Part shown: positions 24,248 through 40,238 of the stretch, piece after piece | Numbering within the stretch: the stretch's first letter is position 1 | Layout of the letters: the number at the start of each line of letters is the position of its first letter | Source: Eledone cirrhosa | Taxonomy: Eukaryota | Assembly (NCBI GenBank): GCA_964016885.1 | Contig: OZ024740.1 | Location: 373,364,001-373,428,000, forward strand | Direction: 5' to 3' | DNA length: 64,000 nucleotides | The notes under the pieces: generated by a model | Told to the model about the DNA's origin: nothing | Databases searched by the model: none | What the model saw: only the letters and a program-made list of their open reading frames with translations | Translations under genes and position numbers: made by a program

Positions 24248-25975
24248 CTCTTTGAGGCTCAGTCATTGATGTTAGTTAACTGGAAAGTTTGTTGAAATGA
24301 ATATCAGGCCACTACCTGCAGGCTCAGATATTCAGGACGTATCGGAGGGTTCTTGCTGTTCCCAGCAAGCATGCTTTTTGAAGCGTTCCAAAAAGCGTGA
24401 AGGGGCCAATTTTCTTTAACCATCCCTGGAAACTTTTTGAGATAGTCCCTAGTGCGCCCATGACAATCGGGATCACTTTGACTTCATAGCAGTTCCAAAT
24501 CCTTTTTACCTCCCACTTTAAATCCTGGTATCCGTTAATTTTCTCCCTCTCCTTCTCTTGAACTCTCGTGTCGAATGGGCAGGCCACATCCACAATCAGG
24601 CACGGTCTTTTTTCTTTGTCCACAACCACCAAGTCAGGTCTATTGTGTTCCAGTTTCTTGTCCGTCTGTATCCTAAAATCCCACAGCACCTTCACCTGAT
24701 CGTTTTCTATCACCGCCTCTGGCTTATGTTCATACGATTTCTCAGAATGTGGTAAATTGTTTACTTTGCATAGGTGCCAGTGGATCACCCTGCTCATCAC
24801 ATCATGTCTCCAGCCCTTATAGTGAGTCTGGACTAGGGTTTACACTCGGATACAATGTGAGCCACAGTCTCCTCTCTCTCTCTCCACAGATCCTGCACAG
24901 TGGGCTAGCCTCCTCCTTGTAAATATGGTGTTTCAACCACTTCATTTTGAGGGCCTGCTCCTGCGCAGCCATTAACATTCCTTCTGTAGGCTTTTTAAGG
25001 TCTCCTCTTTTCAACCAGTTCCATGTCTGTGGATCTTTAAATTTAGTTTTCTCAAAGAAGGTACTATGAAGGGATTTTTCCTGAAGGCTGCTCTTTCTCC
25101 TTGATGTTATTTCCTCCTTGGACATCCCCTGGCCTATTGTCCCCTCCTTCAGTACAGTTCTGAGCATTGGCTCCTTACTATCAGTCACGTATTTGTGTAG
25201 GTTGTTTTTCTCCATCTGAACACAGTCCTCTATGCTGATAAGACCTCTTCCACCTTCAGATCTCCTCAAGTAGAGTCTATCGACATCACTCCTCTTGTGG
25301 AACATGTCGTAGATAGTCAATAGCTTCCTAGTCTTCCTATCCATTTCTTTTTGTTCAGCAACATTCCATCTCAGAATTCCCGCACTGTACCTAATAATAG
25401 ACACTGCTCGGGAATTTACTGCACTTTTGGCATTACTACTGTTCAGATGTGACTTTAATACGTTCCTTACTCTCCGAATGTATTCAGTTCTTATCAATTC
25501 CTTCATCTTTTTTGTTCTTGATGTCATCAGCCTCCAGAACGCCCAAATACTTGTATCCTTCTTCAGAGTCAATTTCCTTTATCGTTTCACCTGTTGGTAC
25601 CTGGATTACGTTACTTCTGCTCAACTTACCCCTCTTCATCACAATTACTCCACACTTACTAATACCAAATTGCATACATATATCATTGCTGAAAATACGG
25701 ACAGTGTCAACAAGCACATCCAACTCCTCACTCCTCCCGAAGAGCTTAAGATCGTCCATGAAGAGGAGGTGATTGATGGTAAGCCCTCCCTTTCCCAACC
25801 TGTATCCTGCTCTCACTTTTCGCAGTACACTGGTCAGGGTCATCAGGGCAAGGACAAACAACAGAGGGGTCAGACTATCTCCCTGGAAGATACCTCTCTT
25901 GATCTTCACGCTTCCCAAGGATTCTCCAGTTGATGTTAACTCTGTTTCCCAGGACTTCATACTTTTGCCCAACAA
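24248..25975 (-). mobile_element. 5'-truncated R4/Dong-clade retrotransposon, family A (RT C-terminal half, CCHC knuckle, RLE), frameshifted
   Basis: GIFQGDSLTPLLF, NHLLFMDDLKLF, YKYLG, CRICGE..AHI..C, RHD, RPDLVV..IVDVACP..EK..YQDL. (TAA)n at both ends. Confidence 0.93.
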
Positions 25976-25999
25976 CTATTATTATTATTATTATTATGC

Positions 26000-28900
26000 A
26001 TTTATCTTGTTTTATGTTCATACGAGTTATCACCAAGTCACAACCAGTGACCTCAAGAGACAACAAGGTCCGCCATGTTCAAGAAGGAACATACATACTC
26101 ACACATGCATCTTTAGTGTTTAGACTCGTGATGTACTTCTATTGTAGAATCTTCCTTAGTATATGGGCAGTTTCCATTAGTACAATCTTTTGTATTATCT
26201 CCTATACGCGGGTTTCCAGGGATTTGCGATAAGTAATCATTAGACCCCTTAGGTATTATTCCCAGAGCGCCTACAACCACTGGTATTGTTTTAGTTCTCA
26301 ATTTCCACATTTTTCCAATTTCTATCTCCAGGTCCTTATACTTGCTCAATTTTTCAAATGTTTTTATAGATACATTCTTGTCTATTGGAACAGACATATC
26401 AATTAGCAGGCATACCCTCTTTTTAAAGTCCTTCAATATTATATCAGGTCTATTTGCATCTATTTTTTGGTGTGTTTGGATGCTAAAGTTCCACAAGATT
26501 GAGATGTGATCTTTTTCAAGTATGGGAGGAGGCTGATGCTCCCACCAATTCTTTTGATGGGGCAGGTCAAAATGCTTACACATTATCCAATGTATGTATT
26601 GTGCAGCTCTGTCATGCACATTGAAATTATATGGTCAATGGTTTCTGGTTGTTTTTTACATACACGGCATAATGGGATGCATCCATTTTTTATTATGTTG
26701 GCTTGGTAATTTTTTGTTGGCAGACACTGATCTTGTGCTGATATAATCAGTCCTTCAGTCTCCGATTTCAGTCCAGAGGATGCCAACCACTGATGGGTTA
26801 AAGTTTTATCAACATCAGGATTGTTAGCTCCTTCTGGGTATTTTCCATACAGAGGCTTTTCTTGCCATTTCTTAGCCAGTTTCTGTAGCAGTTCTTTCTT
26901 TGCAGTTGCTTTTACCTGCTTTGCTTTTTCTGTGTTTTCCATTTCTGTGTTTTCCATTTCTGTATTTTCCATTTCAGCAGTAAATGAAATGTGCAGTCCA
27001 TTATTGTATCTCTGTGCATCTTTTGTAATGGAGTATGATCTTTTGATGCTTTCGTGTTTCAAAACGAGTTTGATCATCCAATCATGTGATTCCCTTAGAT
27101 ATGTAGATAATCCAATTGTTGCAGTTTTCAACGCAATGTCTAACTGGATTAACCCACGTCCTCCTTCTTTCCTAGGGAGATATATTCTATATGTATCTGC
27201 CTTAGGGTGAGGCATTCTGTGCATGGTTAAGCATTTTCTAATTTTTGTATCGAGTCTACGGATATCTGTGCTTGATCAGTTGATGATATTGTAACTGTAG
27301 GTTACTACTGGTATGGCAAGCGTGTTTATGGCTTCGATCCTATTCCTTGCATTCAATTCCGTTCTTAAGATTGCTCTTACTCTGCGGTAACATTCCTTCC
27401 TTATCCTTTCCCTCATTGTCGAGTGCTTGATTTCGTCTCCTTCACAAACACCTAGATATTTTCCTGTTGATCAAGTTCTCTTATCACATTCCCTCGATCA
27501 AGATTAATGTCTGAACTTTTCAGCAGCTTTCCTCTGGTGACCGTTGCTTTGGCGCATTTAACCAGTCCAAACTCCATTTTAATGTCATCACTGAACTGCT
27601 CCACAGTGGATAATAGCCCTTGCAATTGTTCATCATTTTTTTGCAAATAGTTTCAGGTCATCCATGTAGAACAAGTGATTAATGGTTTTGTCATAGACTT
27701 TATATCCATGTTTTGTTTCATTGAGCATTTTACTTAATGGGATAAGTGCGATGCAGAATAAAAGCGGTGATAAAGAGTCACCCTGAAAACTTCCACAATT
27801 AATATTAACTTCTCCAGCTTCCAGTGGTTTTTTTTCACTATTCAAAAGGAGTGTCGTTTTCCATGTCTTCATACTGAATGACAAAAACCTCCTGACAACG
27901 GGGGATATTTTGAAAATCTCTAAACATTTTTCAATCCAACTGTGTGGCAAACTATCGAATGCTTTTTTATAATCTATCCAAGCAATCGATAGATTTTTGT
28001 GTCTATTATGACAATCTTCCAGTATCATTTTGTTAACCAGAAGCTGATCCTTACAGCCATATTGAGCCTCGTTTACACCCTTTCTGCTCAATGGGAAATA
28101 GGTCATTTGTTATCAGGTGGTCATATGCGTATTCAGTTAGGACTGATGTAAAAATTTTATACATTGTGGTCAAGCAAGTTATCGGTCTGTAATTTTGGGG
28201 AAGCAGGAATGTAATGCCGTTAACTAGCCATGATGGTATCTTTTCTGGCTCCTTAACTATTTCATTGTAAAGTTGGGCTAACAGCTGATGAGACTCTGTG
28301 AAGGCATTTATCCAAAAGTTTTGTATTTTGTCTTTTCCTGGGGATTTCCGTTTTCTGGTTTTTCTTAGAGCCAAGCGCAACTGTTCAACTGTTATATTTT
28401 CCCATATTTGTTCGTCAAGGTGAGCTGTATCTTTCATTTGTCTGTCTATCCATGGGGCATGTATGTTATGAACTTTTTCTTCGGCCCAGATCTTTTCCCA
28501 GAATTCTTGCACTTCCTCCTTTGGTGGTATTGATTTAGCAGTTATTGTTGACTTACCAATTTTTCTGTAGAAGTTTCTTTGGTTGTTTTTGAACATATTA
28601 TTGTCCTTATAGAATCTAGATTGTTTTTCAAAGCGCCTTATACGAGCAGCTTTGGCCGATACTTTTTGCTTGATTATTTCTATCAGCATGTCTATGTCAC
28701 ATGTTGATTTTATACTGTACTTTTTTTTCAATTTTCTAAGTTTAGTTTGTTTAACATGTTCACCTACTTTATAGTTTGTTAAAATTTCTATGTCAGATCG
28801 GAGAAGGTTTATTTGGCGATTGATGTTCTCTTGCCAAGTAGATTTCTTGTGGGAATTCCTTTGTTTTTTCATCTTCACTCCACATAAGTGAGTCGTGACT

Positions 28901-29930
28901 TTAGCCGATGCATAATAGAGATGATTTAAATCAGTAATGTTTAGTTTGTTTGTGATGAAGATGTTTTTGATAATTATGTTAGTCTTGTGTATTATCTTTT
29001 GGTTCTGTTTGGAGTTCTGGATCTTAGGGAGGGTGTCTCGTTGCCCCATGTCAGATTCTTTCATTTTCATCCATTCGATTATAATTTCATCCTTCAAGTT
29101 GGCAAGTTCATTCTCATTCATTTCTTTATCATTTACGATCTCATTATTTTCATTTGGAGTTTCATCTTGGGCATGCACTCCCTCCACTTTTTCGATCCTT
29201 TCTTTAATTTGTTCTGTTGCCAGTGATTCCGCCCCAACCCAGGGGTTCGAAGTGTTACTGTTTACCTCATTTTCACTGACACATGTTTCATTTTCCCTTC
29301 GATGACTTTGTGATAATAGCTTCATCTGATCAATTTCTATATCAGTTAGTAACTTTTGTCTTACAATATTTCTTCGTATATTGGCTAGTTTGTTACTGTC
29401 AATATAACCTCTGTTTTCGGGATGTTTCTTTTTCCAGTTGATATATGTCTGTTCTGTATTCAATGTATTTGATGGGTAGTACATGGCAGTGTAGAAAGCC
29501 TCAAGGACTTTTTTATTATCTTCCCTTGACCATTTTTCTCTCTTTTTCTTTGGATTTATTGGTGGTGAGCATGGAGGGCCAACATTAGGAGTATTCCGGT
29601 TATGGGAGGTCTCCAGCTCCGAAGTGATGGGAAGGTTTGAACCATTAGCTGATTTTTCGACCCCAGTCTGGTTCCTCCCTGAGGGACGCGGTCCTTTTTT
29701 ACCCGGGTGACGGCCGATCCGGTATGAGATTTTATCATTAGACATTTACTTTATTTTGTCGCGTTTTATCCTTATCCGCCAAGGGGTAATCATTTCGTGT
29801 TACCACTTCTAGAACGAGTGTCAACCAAGACTAGAGGGGTGGTTGTCCCCTAGAGACACGGCTATTCCCCGCCGGCCGCCATCCCGGTATTTCTTGGTCA
29901 CGGGGCTTTCTTTTTGTTGTTTGTTTTTAA
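26000..29930 (-). mobile_element. Near full-length R4/Dong-clade retrotransposon, family B; single ORF 29745 to about 26113, broken by several frameshifts
   Basis: N-terminal REKWSREDNKKVLEAFY...NKLANIRRNI (R4-type), KSPGKDKIQNFW, NYRPITCL, EQKGC, WIDYKKAFDS, FQGDSLSPLLF, FYMDDLKLF, CRVCKKQPETIDHI, RPDII..LIDMSVP..KYKDL. GC-rich 5' UTR at 29750-29910. Confidence 0.95.
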
Positions 29931-36364: not shown

Positions 36365-36472
36365 GTGTGTGTGTGCCTATATATATATATATATATATAT
36401 ATAATATGTATGTATACGTACATACATATATGTATACATACGTAGAGTAGTATGTATATATATACATACATG

Positions 36473-36545
<73 letters not shown>

Positions 36546-36551
<6 letters not shown>

Positions 36552-37383
36552 GTATCGGTTTACCGAACATTCATTATAATGTCCGGTTTGTTTGTAAACA
36601 AACAAACAGCCCGAATTACGCCGTACAGTGTTTCAACACTGAGACAGGAAACTAGTACTTCGTTCCTGTGTCAGTATTGAACAAAAAGGTGACGTGGTTG
36701 CCTAAACACTGTACAGCGTAATTCGGGATGTTTGTTTACAAACAAACCGAACATTATAATAAATTTTCGGTAAACCGATACGTGCATACATATATATGTG
36801 TGCAGTATGTATATATATACATACTACTGTACGTCTGTATACATATATGTATGTACGTATACATACATACTTACATTTAAGTAACTGCCGTACTAAGAGT
36901 GAGAAATGAAATTTCGTTTCATCTTATTCCATTTATCTATCTTTTCGGTGCGCCCAGCCGACTAAACTCTCTCGATATGCAAATTATTCTGCTCAGCCGT
37001 TAATATGCATAAGGAAATTATATACTTTCAGACGTTCAACCATCTGGCAGGAGGGTATACGATGCTGACGATAGCTAATAAGCTTGAAACTAGTACATCG
37101 TTCCTGTGTCAGTGTTGAACAAAAAGGTGACGTGGTGGCCTAAACACTGTACGGCGTAATTAGGGTTGTTTGTTTGTTTACAAACAAACCGAACATTATA
37201 ATAAATTTTCGGTAAACCGATACGTGCATAGATATATATCTGTGTATGTATGTATATATATACATACTACTGTACGTCTGTATACATATATGTATGTACG
37301 TATAAATGCATACATACTTACATTTAAGTAACTGCCGTACTAACATTGAGAAATGACATTTCGTTTCATCTTATTCCATTTAT
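36546..37383 (+). mobile_element. Retrozyme-like non-coding element: inverted 5' segment (36546-36647) plus 1.7 tandem copies of a 438-nt unit (36648-37085, 37086-37383), set in (TA)n
   Basis: GAAACTAGTAC(T/A)TCGTTCCTGTGTCAG starts both units, which are colinear for about 295 nt. The upstream segment is the reverse complement of unit sequence. Confidence 0.8.
37059..37101 (+). ncRNA. Minimal type-I hammerhead ribozyme with intact core; predicted cleavage after 37095
   Basis: Stem I ACGATG/CATCGT, CTGACGA, stem II T-AGCT-AATA-AGCT-T, GAAA, palindromic stem III ACTAGT, GUA triplet. Confidence 0.85.
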
Positions 37384-37393
37384 ATATATATAC

Positions 37394-39814
37394 ATAATCA
37401 ATACTTGAGGGCGGCCGACAGAGGTAGAAGCTGCTAAATTGTCGGTCGCCCTCTTGTCTCTGATTTTCAGCACCATGTATTTTATCTGTTATATTTTGAA
37501 TTACCTGAGGATGTCCCCGGATTCATACTGAACCCGGTCATTGAAATGATCATAGTTTAATAAACCTTTCAAGGATTAACACCAATCCAGCCTCCTGTTA
37601 TTTTATAATAATTAACACGTACACGCACAACCAACAACACAAAGGAAGACGGGTGAGTTGCATTATGTTAAGTGCTCTCCATAATATTACATCGATGTTG
37701 ACCATACGGAATGACCAATTCTATTCCAGTGGTGAACCAACAAACCTAAATAACTAATGCTCCAGAAATGTCGAGCGGTTTCAGATGTAATAATGAACAG
37801 CGGCACTGACTCCAGTGTACAGCTATCGCCAGCATCGAACTAACTAATCTACACACCATTCGGATTTTGGCTGCTGTGAGCTTTATCTACCGCCCACCTA
37901 GTCTCATGCTGCTTCTATATTGGGAATATTCAGACCCTGACAGTCCTCATTGATTCCTCTACATAATTCTACGTATTCTAATATAACGTGCATTGTATTT
38001 ACTGAATTATCTATCCTATACTTCAGGGCATTGTTGAATATTAAGACTCGAACATACACCAGGTATTACTTGATACCATTCCTTCTCTTCCATCCCCTAT
38101 ATCTATATGTATAACATTGTATTATCTAAATGCCCCTCGATCAATCTTATATTTCCCCTGTGTTTTGATTTCCTCGATATGTTCTTATATGCTTCCGTTT
38201 TACTCCATGCATCACCACCCTAGTTATGACTGCATTTTATTTATGTATTTTAATTTATCTATTTTCCTTTTTATTCATGTATTTTCTTATTATTCCTTTT
38301 ACTTATGTATTTACTTACTCGCTCTATTCTCAGTACATACCTACCACTGTGCTCATTAGCACACAACCCTAGAATATTACTCTCTGTATCCTTATTTCTG
38401 TTTATCTTTATTCACTTCCATACCCACCCTAGAACCACACTACTATAACCCGGAATAAATGGGGACTAAATATAGTATATCAGCGCATTTTATCGCCTTT
38501 TACGACTTTAAACCTCACATCACGTGTGTGAATAAATAATAATCGTTTGGTAACACCCGATGATCCGACGGATGTGGGGAATTTCCCGACTGCACGTCAG
38601 GCGCACGGGTAGTTCAGCCTTCCTTGAGTACTTGGAAAAATAAATTTCCCCTTCTTTCGATAAACGAAATTACTCGGAACGGCTGCTTCAACCCGGGGCC
38701 ATGTCGGACTTGGGACTCGCCGCGCCGGCGGCATTGACCGCCAAATATTACCTTTAATTTCTAGGCTTAGTCATAACTATTAGCTGTATCATGCCTCTTC
38801 CTACTAACACTTAACTAAATCCCATTCCTGTGTGAGCTAATAGCAACCGTTTGGTATATACGATGACCAGCCGGCGCTGGGGGAATTCCCCCTAACACAC
38901 ACAACGTCGAAGACAGTTACATTCCTGGAGTGCTCGGAAAAATTAATTTCCATTTCTTTCGCTAGACGATATTTCTCGGAACGGCTGGCATGCGGGTGGG
39001 TTGGCTGGCGATAGGGTCGCAGTCGTCGGTGGTTATTGACCGCTAAGCAAGGGCGTAATATTTACTCTACATACTATCTTGAACATTTATCGTGACTATA
39101 TATATTACACTTAAACTTTTTCATAAAACCTCCTTCTTTAAATGGTCACTTTCTCTCTATGTCACTTACACACACATCTCTCTTTCTCACTCTGTCTGTC
39201 AATCTTTTTTTACTCTCTCTGTCACTCTCTATTTCTCTCTCATTTACACACACACCTTCCCTTTTTTTAATCTCTATATATGTCTTTGTTGAAGATATTT
39301 GTTCTTTGGAAAAATATTTTTCGCAGCAATTTCGAGCACACATGACCAGCCTGATTGACGCATGACCTCAACGCTGACTTTTCCATCTGACAGGATGGTA
39401 GTAGCACATTATAGGCTTGACCCCCCCCCCCCCAAACACACACCAGATGGTCATAAGTAGACTTAATAATCAACACTTGAGGGCGGCCGTCAGAGGTGGA
39501 AGCTGCTATATTGTCGATTGCCCTCTTGTCTCTGATTTTCAGCACAATATATTTTATCTGTTATATTTTGAATTGCCTGATAATGTCACCGGATTCATAC
39601 TGAACCCGGTCATTGAAATGATCATAGTATAATAAACCTTTCAATGATCTACACCAGTCCAGCCTCCTGTTATTTTATAATAATTAACTCCGTACTTGCA
39701 CCACCAACCACACAAAGGAAGACGGGTGAGTTGCATTACGTTGAGTGCTCTCCATAATCATCGAGGTCGACCATACGGAATGACCTGTTCTATCCAGTGA
39801 TGAACCAACAAACC

Positions 39815-39820
<6 letters not shown>
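37394..39820 (+). mobile_element. 2.4-kb non-coding element bounded by about 355-bp direct repeats (37394-37752 and 39466-39820), each with a hammerhead motif; (TA)n on both sides
   Basis: The repeats are colinear. HHR at 37502-37557 (CTGAGGA, stem II ..CCGG/CCGG.., GAAA, palindromic ATGATCAT, AUA) and at about 39575-39629 (core CTGATAA). No recognisable protein inside. Confidence 0.7.
38541..39048 (+). repeat. Two diverged copies (38541-38745 and 38845-39048) of an approximately 200-nt GC-rich structured motif
   Basis: Shared order of blocks with compensatory pairing (TCCGAC/GTCGGA versus CCAGCC/GGCTGG). Confidence 0.75.
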
Positions 39821-39859
<39 letters not shown>

Positions 39860-39915
39860 GTGAGTTTTTTTTTACAAAATGAAAAATAACGGAGGTGTCC
39901 TACACGAGTGAAAGT

Positions 39916-40108
39916 ATAAAGAAAAAGAGATGAAATCGAAAATGCAACTGGAGTCTTATTTTTTTATGTGAGAAAAACCACAGACCTTCCATCTCAACTC
40001 AGCTTTTGAAAAGCAGAAGAAATGCGAAACCGGTAAAGGAACCAAATAAATATATATATTTAAAAAAAAAATAAGACTCCAGTTGCATTTTCGATTTCAT
40101 CTCTTTTC

Positions 40109-40114
<6 letters not shown>
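39916..40114. repeat. Inverted repeat (arms about 50 bp) enclosing a decayed minimal hammerhead at 40003-40038
   Basis: AAGAGATGAAATCGAAAATGCAACTGGAGTCTTATTTTTTT and its reverse complement. Spacer reads CTT TTGAAAA GCA..TGC GAAA CCGGTA AAG. Confidence 0.8.
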
Positions 40115-40152
<38 letters not shown>

Positions 40153-40174
40153 TTACACACACACACACACACAG

Positions 40175-40238
<64 letters not shown>

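What the first reader, a model, noticed from the sequence alone, without database searches (positions are those of the whole stretch)
38541..39048. Duplicated 200-nt multibranch structure with compensatory base changes
Seen: two strongly diverged copies keep the same pairings. These are a long-range stem TCCGAC/GTCGGA versus CCAGCC/GGCTGG right after a conserved CGATGA, a GGGGAATT(T)CCC hairpin, nested CAGCC/GGCTG (CAGTT/GGCTG), TTCC/GGAA, GAG/CTC, GGAAA/TTTCC and TCG/CGA, and a terminal GGCGG-CATTGA-CCGCC versus GGTGG-TTATTGA-CCGCT hairpin. Covariation suggests selection on structure. It matches no RNA family I recognise. It could be a cis-acting RNA element of the enclosing retroelement, a hammerhead derivative with a very large stem II (copy 2 has CGATA GGGTC after the stem), or a palindromic DNA element.
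Basis: partly seen in the sequence, partly recalled or inferred. Interest (0 to 1): 0.7.

Follow-up and report, generated by a model that had tools for sequence, protein, structure and literature searches.

The report
Re-doubled RNA rods in Penelope parasite
A non-coding jumping element in this animal genome carries two 200-letter stretches predicted to fold into long RNA rods with a nearly unchanging branched tip that matches no catalogued RNA family; the pair appears to have been rebuilt by duplication at least three times, so it is likely a docking site that helps the element's RNA reach the copying enzyme it borrows.

Summary
Both units lie inside an ORF-less Penelope-like retroelement with hammerhead-bearing terminal repeats; a strict pattern for their tip finds 1,101 genomic matches (control 0). 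Across seven family-level units only 47-81% identical, the sense strand is predicted to form one ~200-nt rod topped by a three-way junction of almost invariant sequence. Support is at helix level: consensus-fold z -7.8, and native arm pairing ranks first of 5,040 arm swaps. No single pair reached significance in my tree-corrected covariation test. Trees indicate three separate tandem duplications (D1/D2, B1/B2, H1/H2), the last in a very young family. Best reading: a cis-acting docking site for a slowly evolving host factor that delivers the RNA to a borrowed reverse transcriptase, as Alu does; untested. No autonomous partner, no RNA data and no homolog outside this genome were found. The scan reported the same element before at another place in this genome (e1-10309240).

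The parts
37394..39819 (+). ORF-less Penelope-like element: one 2,072-nt repeat unit plus a second terminal repeat, sitting in (TA)n
   Evidence: 1,475 first-look candidates for the unit-1 query, 40 scored; longest stop-free frame in the family majority 97 aa
37394..37751 (+). 5' pseudo-LTR (direct repeat)
   Evidence: 90% identical to 39466-39820
37407..37453 (+). Hairpin just upstream of the hammerhead (second copy 39479-39525); its stem changes but stays paired in families B, D, F, H
   Evidence: read by eye
37505..37554 (+). Type I hammerhead core with one-pair helix III and palindromic loop; core intact in this copy
   Evidence: helix I, helix II and loop 3 change in concert in family D; cleavage untested
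38544..38746 (+). Unit 1: predicted ~200-nt rod with Y-shaped tip
   Evidence: model R2 98 bits
38620..38679 (+). Unit 1 tip: closing helix with 2-nt bulge, hairpin 1 (38634-38649), hairpin 2 (38655-38669)
38848..39048 (+). Unit 2: same predicted rod, more decayed in this copy
   Evidence: model R2 78 bits
38922..38981 (+). Unit 2 tip: hairpin 1 (38936-38951), hairpin 2 (38957-38971)
39466..39819 (+). 3' pseudo-LTR; its hammerhead (39577-39626) has a core substitution in this copy; ends directly in (TA)n

Best explanation
Each unit is predicted to fold, on the element's sense RNA, into a long rod that holds up a three-way junction, and that junction is likely a docking site for a slowly evolving host RNA-binding factor that would help this non-coding RNA reach the reverse transcriptase it borrows from an autonomous Penelope-like element. 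Shown by sequence comparison: the units belong to an ORF-less element with hammerhead pseudo-LTRs, their arms diverged to 52-55% identity while native arms still pair best, the tip sequence barely changes, and the two-unit state arose repeatedly. Inferred: the structure acts at the RNA stage in the master copies, two tips work better than one, and the binder is a host factor. Untested: folding, expression, binding and any effect on mobility.
For: Host element: direct terminal repeats with hammerhead, 5'-truncated copies with inverted 5' pieces, (TA)n targets, no ORF, matching features described for Penelope-like elements (PMC8557442, PMC4209133). Structure: seven family-level units 47-81% identical share the fold; consensus energy -63.0 against -34.2 +/- 3.7 for 200 column shuffles, none as low, SCI 0.86, reverse strand -41.6. 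Native 5'/3' arm pairing ranks 1 of 5,040 permutations, and arms mutated at random to 45% give -35 +/- 7 against -52 (D2) and -63 (F). The + strand has the better z in 7 of 7 families, with 73 G-U pairs against 27 on the - strand. On 35 raw copies the named structure has 78% of cells paired against 38-50% for slid registers (structure derived from the same families, so biased). Hairpin 2 changes sequence but stays paired in D2, E and F. Tip identity is 0.79 against 0.55 and 0.52 for the arms; GAGTGCTY is exact in 11 of 14 unit types. Position-2 units are rejected as one clade (p-AU 1e-3 to 1e-45), and H1/H2 are sisters at 100/99. The tip stayed constant while the 3' part of the pseudo-LTR diverged to 70-88% between families, which fits a host partner better than a fast-evolving transposon protein (inference).
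Against: No single pair was significant in my tree-corrected G-test (best E 1.2 among 73 proposed pairs, 157 copies). Default RNAalifold on 35 raw copies gave only 3 pairs, none of them in the model. G-U against A-C counts in columns defined by Watson-Crick pairs alone were not significant (13 vs 9; 22 vs 16). Single family-level folds have z of only -1.4 to -2.0 in 5 of 7 cases. The tip helices are invariant, so they give no covariation evidence. Families E and F carry one complete unit, and the predicted tips of C1 and G1 are eroded, so two intact tips are not essential. No binding partner or host ancestor of the motif was identified.
Confidence: 0.45

Rival explanations
1. The junction binds the borrowed reverse transcriptase directly, as a second high-affinity site working like the CR4/5 junction of telomerase RNA; two copies would suit a dimeric enzyme.
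For: Penelope-like RTs are the closest relatives of TERT, and CR4/5 is a three-way junction with a short 3' hairpin (PMC4993307 passages). The Anolis Poseidon protein is predicted to be a dimer (PMC11167929). Duplication recurred.
Against: In the one Penelope-like element tested in vitro, the minimal RNA lies just downstream of the hammerhead, which here corresponds to the conserved pseudo-LTR end, 600-1,100 nt from the rods. Model R2 found no credible match (best 12 bits) in 50 GIY-YIG loci. The invariant A between P6 and P6.1 has no counterpart.
Confidence: 0.25
2. The tip is an RNA-RNA pairing signal: its self-complementary 8-mer would let two units or two molecules pair, helping the dimer-type hammerheads or a two-template reaction.
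For: The 18-nt core self-duplexes at -13 to -17 kcal/mol in 8 of 10 families. Its two common variants (G/A at position 11, C/T at position 14) both keep the self-pairing. Hammerheads of this type may act as dimers (PMC4209133).
Against: In the favoured fold five of the eight bases are already paired. The predicted two-molecule folds used this 8-mer in only 2 of 10 families. The resemblance could come from an old local duplication.
Confidence: 0.1
3. The units act as DNA (an enhancer-like cluster or a fold-back element), or are passengers whose pairing is renewed by inverted-repeat correction or A-to-I editing rather than selection.
For: Pair-level covariation is not significant. The strict G-U/A-C test is not significant. 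Family D arms show a mild A>G excess (50 vs 32 per 1,000, p 0.014, 1 of 8 tests).
Against: Folding is strand-asymmetric in 7 of 7 families and rich in G-U pairs. Hairpin-1 loop length varies with stem extension. There is no A>G excess in family A (p 0.83). The units were not seen outside the element (60 of 60).
Confidence: 0.1
4. The unit is a ribozyme or an IRES-like ribosome-binding module.
For: An invariant junction with a bulged closing helix is typical of tertiary-structured RNAs (general knowledge).
Against: No hammerhead core in 14 unit types. No Rfam match over the units beyond chance level. No ORF follows the units in families A and D, and family H has only low-complexity stop-free frames.
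Confidence: 0.1

Closest known systems
Non-autonomous Penelope-like elements (e.g. MRC1 of the Chlamys clade; PMC8557442, passages read) and hammerhead pseudo-LTRs (PMC4209133, first part read)
   Same: Pseudo-LTR direct repeats, partial tandems, inverted 5'-truncated pieces, (TA)n targets, type I hammerhead with tiny helix III and palindromic loop, no ORF.
   Different: Carries one or two internal 200-nt conserved RNA structures; I found none described for these elements in the searches listed in the report. The autonomous partner and clade are unknown.
Metazoan non-LTR retrozymes (PMC7229834, passages read; bioRxiv 10.64898/2026.07.22.740005, first part read)
   Same: Non-coding, type I hammerhead at each repeat boundary, proposed to be moved by Penelope-like elements.
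   Different: The monomer is 2.1-2.9 kb rather than about 300 nt, copies are dispersed and truncated rather than in tandem arrays, and circular RNA was not examined.
Alu SINE and its SRP9/14-binding domain (recalled, no call)
   Same: Functional analogy only: a non-coding parasite with a duplicated structured domain thought to use a host factor to reach the borrowed RT.
   Different: No sequence or Rfam similarity to SRP RNA; a different retroelement class; binder unknown.
Telomerase RNA CR4/5 three-way junction (PMC4993307, passages read)
   Same: Three-way junction on a long stem with a short 3' hairpin, often with a 5-nt loop, in an RNA copied by a TERT-related enzyme.
   Different: The 3' hairpin is the variable part here (loop 3-5 nt), the joint between the hairpins is pyrimidine-rich without an invariant A, and no Rfam telomerase match was found.

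Membership tests
Non-autonomous Penelope-like element (host element) | Direct pseudo-LTRs from partial tandem repeats | tested here: met
   37394-37752 and 39466-39820, 90% identical; full tandem junctions in family H
Non-autonomous Penelope-like element (host element) | Type I hammerhead in the pseudo-LTR | tested here: met
   Core, helices and palindromic loop in the family majority, with concerted changes in family D; cleavage not tested
Non-autonomous Penelope-like element (host element) | Inverted 5'-truncated pieces and (TA)n targets | tested here: met
Non-autonomous Penelope-like element (host element) | No RT/endonuclease ORF | tested here: met
   Stop-free frames under 100 aa in families A and D, only low-complexity frames up to 137 aa in H
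Non-autonomous Penelope-like element (host element) | 3' end shared with an autonomous partner | tested here: inconclusive
   No linked pseudo-LTR in 50 of 150 listed GIY-YIG matches examined; one nearby copy (L200) is a separate insertion
Hammerhead ribozyme (the units) | CUGANGA and GAAA core around helix II | tested here: not met
   0 of 14 unit types have CUGANGA
MITE or palindromic DNA element | Independent insertions outside a host element | tested here: not met
   60 of 60 pattern-found loci match the rest of the element
MITE or palindromic DNA element | Strand-symmetric Watson-Crick inverted repeats | tested here: not met
   + strand better in 7 of 7 families, 73 vs 27 G-U pairs; a stricter column test was not significant
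Telomerase RNA CR4/5 | Conserved P6.1 (4-bp stem, 5-nt loop) | tested here: inconclusive
   Hairpin 2 has 3-5 bp and a 3-5-nt loop and is not sequence-conserved
Telomerase RNA CR4/5 | Invariant A between P6 and P6.1 | tested here: not met
   The joint is pyrimidine-rich, with A only in some families
Telomerase RNA CR4/5 | Binding by a TERT-like RT | not testable with these tools
   Needs a binding assay and the partner protein
Any Rfam 15 family (IRES, SRP, SECIS, snRNA, ribozymes) | Covariance-model match | tested here: not met
   0 matches at gathering score in the window; at E up to 10 only one 31-nt chance hit on the - strand of unit 1; none over the units in 4 relatives at E up to 1
Metazoan non-LTR retrozyme | Short (~300 nt) tandem monomers | tested here: not met
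   Monomers of 2,072 nt (A) and about 2,850-2,900 nt (H)
Metazoan non-LTR retrozyme | Circular RNA in cells | not testable with these tools
   No run on record as RNA was listed

The most novel reading that the evidence does not exclude
A new class of structured RNA, a 200-nt rod with an invariant three-way-junction tip, lets a non-coding Penelope-like parasite hijack a conserved host factor or dock a telomerase-like reverse transcriptase, and selection for two docking sites rebuilt the tandem pair at least three times, a convergent parallel to the dimeric Alu.
Probability: 0.35. Interest if true: 0.8.

Novelty: new variant of a known kind. Interest (0 to 1): 0.55.

Why it matters
How Penelope-like elements pick, protect and move their RNA is largely unknown; only one has been studied in vitro. 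A non-coding parasite keeps only what it needs in cis, so a 60-nt junction held constant through long divergence and repeatedly doubled points to a step in the cycle that has not been described. Family H is very young (copies 92-99% identical), so near-intact templates exist for probing, pull-down and mobility tests. The result would bear on how non-autonomous elements overcome cis preference and on RNA recognition by telomerase-related enzymes.

Tried and rejected
Rfam: nothing over the units. Pattern scans outside the genome: 5 viral and 15 metagenome matches, best 20.5 bits with model R2 against 52-98 for true units and without the conserved context, judged chance; 0 in prokaryotic genomes. 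Other animal genomes could not be searched, so the taxonomic range is open. Autonomous partner: 50 GIY-YIG loci and 20 loci with variant pseudo-LTR motifs gave no link; the RT ORFs beside L180 and L200 belong to separate insertions. Sequencing runs: no RNA holder listed; the three contig sets laid on the element say nothing on expression. Model R1, built from the default consensus, had only 8 pairs and was not used. SECIS reading of the ATGA at the unit base: the motif is not conserved and sits in an ordinary helix. A two-hairpin alternative of the tip lies 1-3 kcal/mol above the best tip fold in the 7 of 10 families where it was found, with probability at most 0.17. The lower mutation count in the tip among copies was not used, because loci were picked by similarity to it. 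A resemblance to dicistrovirus, HCV-like and CTE motifs was recalled only and was not supported by Rfam or by cross-family conservation. A full-text search for five 13-nt tip motifs gave one unrelated paper.

Full report
Observation. The two units are at 38544-38746 and 38848-39048. Copy 1 folds better than all 200 shuffles (z -3.4); copy 2 does not (z -1.2). The reverse strands give -2.6 and -0.4. Rfam has no match at gathering score in the window and only chance-level hits nearby.

Context. The window lies in a 3.0-Gb genome, and the unit is a high-copy repeat (1,475 candidates, 40 scored). The 30 loci fetched define an element at 37394-39819 with 90%-identical direct terminal repeats 2,072 nt apart. 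Many copies are 5'-truncated with an inverted piece and end in (TA)n. The family majority has no stop-free frame over 97 aa, and it has a type I hammerhead in each terminal repeat. In family D, helix I, helix II and the palindromic loop change in concert. These are features described for Penelope-like elements (PMC8557442, passages; PMC4209133, part 1 of 4). The animal group is not established; a cephalopod is my guess from a recalled resemblance.

Families. A strict tip pattern matches 1,101 places, against 0 for the reversed control. A long-loop variant adds 37 places. From these and DNA searches I distinguished families A (the window's), B, C, G, D, E, F and H. Of 174 extracted units, 169 were kept after dropping 5 with microsatellite flanks. 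All 60 pattern-found loci tested, some overlapping, match the element outside the units, and 53 have the terminal repeat within 1.5 kb.

Structure. Seven family-level rows (majorities of 6-44 copies; F is a single copy) are 47-81% identical and align almost without gaps. Their consensus is one rod of about 60 pairs, from a basal GTTTGG/CCAAAC-type stem to a three-way junction. The junction has a closing helix with a 2-nt bulge and two short hairpins. The consensus energy is -63.0, against -34.2 +/- 3.7 for 200 conservation-preserving column shuffles (none as low) and -41.6 for the reverse strand. In an arm-swap test the native pairing of 5' and 3' arms ranked 1 of 5,040, with a mean advantage of 11 kcal/mol, largest in D2 and F. 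Random decay of B arms to 45% gave -35 +/- 7. The + strand beat the - strand in 7 of 7 families. On 35 real copies the named structure had 78% of cells paired against 38-50% for slid registers; that structure came from the same families, so the count leans towards it. Hairpin 2 keeps its pairing through different sequences in D2, E and F. Family H, found later and not used to derive the model, folds the same way.

Results against. My own tree-corrected G-test on 157 copies (families only, singleton clusters and duplicates dropped) found no significant pair; proposed pairs scored higher than others only as a group (p 0.004, not phylogeny-corrected). Default RNAalifold on 35 decayed copies gave 3 pairs outside the model. 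G-U against A-C counts in Watson-Crick-defined columns were not significant. I read this as few independent lineages and sliding registers, but pair-level proof is missing.

History. The tip is far more conserved than the arms (0.79 vs 0.55 and 0.52). Trees place unit 1 of A, C, G and B in one group and unit 2 in another, together apart from D1 and D2. The two units of H are sisters derived from the G1 type, and no A2-type unit was detected in eight H loci. Position-2 units are rejected as one clade in three tests (groups named by position, after I had seen the trees). This implies at least three tandem duplications. E and F have one complete unit followed by what looks by eye like the start of a second. 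Spacing between units ranges from about 280 to 510 nt. H copies are 92-99% identical.

Mechanism. A non-coding element keeps what its master copies need in cis. In the one Penelope-like element studied in vitro, the minimal template lies just downstream of the hammerhead (PMC11167929, parts 1-2 of 4). Here that region is the pseudo-LTR end, which is conserved but drifts to 70-88% between families. The tip stays nearly fixed 600-1,100 nt upstream. I therefore favour a docking site for a host factor that helps the RNA reach the borrowed enzyme (0.45) over direct RT binding (0.25), RNA-RNA pairing through the self-complementary 8-mer (0.1), a DNA-level or passenger role (0.1) and a ribozyme or IRES (0.1). 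None of these steps is shown. The Alu comparison is recalled, not taken from a call.

Comparison and novelty. The host element is a new member of a known kind, and no partner was found in 50 GIY-YIG loci. The internal RNA matches no Rfam family, fails the hammerhead and MITE tests, and lacks the invariant A of telomerase CR4/5 (PMC4993307, passages). Six literature searches showed no description of such a structure; I saw only listings for most hits. I also read passages of PMC7229834 and PMC13282606, and part 1 of 5 of bioRxiv 10.64898/2026.07.22.740005. No supplements were read. It is not independent support, and I saw it after forming my reading. The short note does not mention the repeated re-duplication, the arm-swap test or the negative pair-level test.

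Verdict. A real, uncatalogued, conserved RNA structure inside a known kind of non-autonomous retroelement, so far from one genome only; function inferred. Interest 0.55.

Noticed in passing
window 39857-40217: A second small element with an inverted piece. It resembles the 3' end of a Neptune-type ORF family (L200:5250-5470, L079) and has hammerhead-like core words in reversed order; it may be the scrambled hammerhead that other notes of this scan describe.
   Followed up: no
window 36452-36940 and 37040-37387: Direct and inverted copies of another repeat, with a hammerhead-like core near 37065-37100; probably a different Penelope-like pseudo-LTR remnant in the same (TA)n hot spot.
   Followed up: no
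window 24324-29745 (-): Decayed non-LTR retrotransposon; 2 of 22 frames scanned hit Pfam RVT_1. Unrelated to the finding.
   Followed up: partly
L215-L252 (family H): Very young relative (1,015 candidates; 92-99% identity; monomer about 2,850-2,900 nt) with a diverged pseudo-LTR 3' end and full tandem junctions; possibly still active.
   Followed up: partly
L180:1761-3554 (-): 597-aa RT plus endonuclease-like frame with its own hammerhead, perhaps of the Hydra clade (by eye), next to another hammerhead-bearing non-coding repeat.
   Followed up: partly
L185:2100-4350: A family E unit interrupted by an insertion whose frames look like a hAT transposase (by eye).
   Followed up: no
L041:1274-1956: A two-unit family B fragment beside an LTR-retrotransposon-like pol region, with no pseudo-LTR in view.
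   Followed up: partly
L091-L120 (family D arms): Mild A>G excess in the rod arms (p 0.014, 1 of 8 tests), not seen in family A; could be a trace of A-to-I editing of the RNA intermediate.
   Followed up: partly
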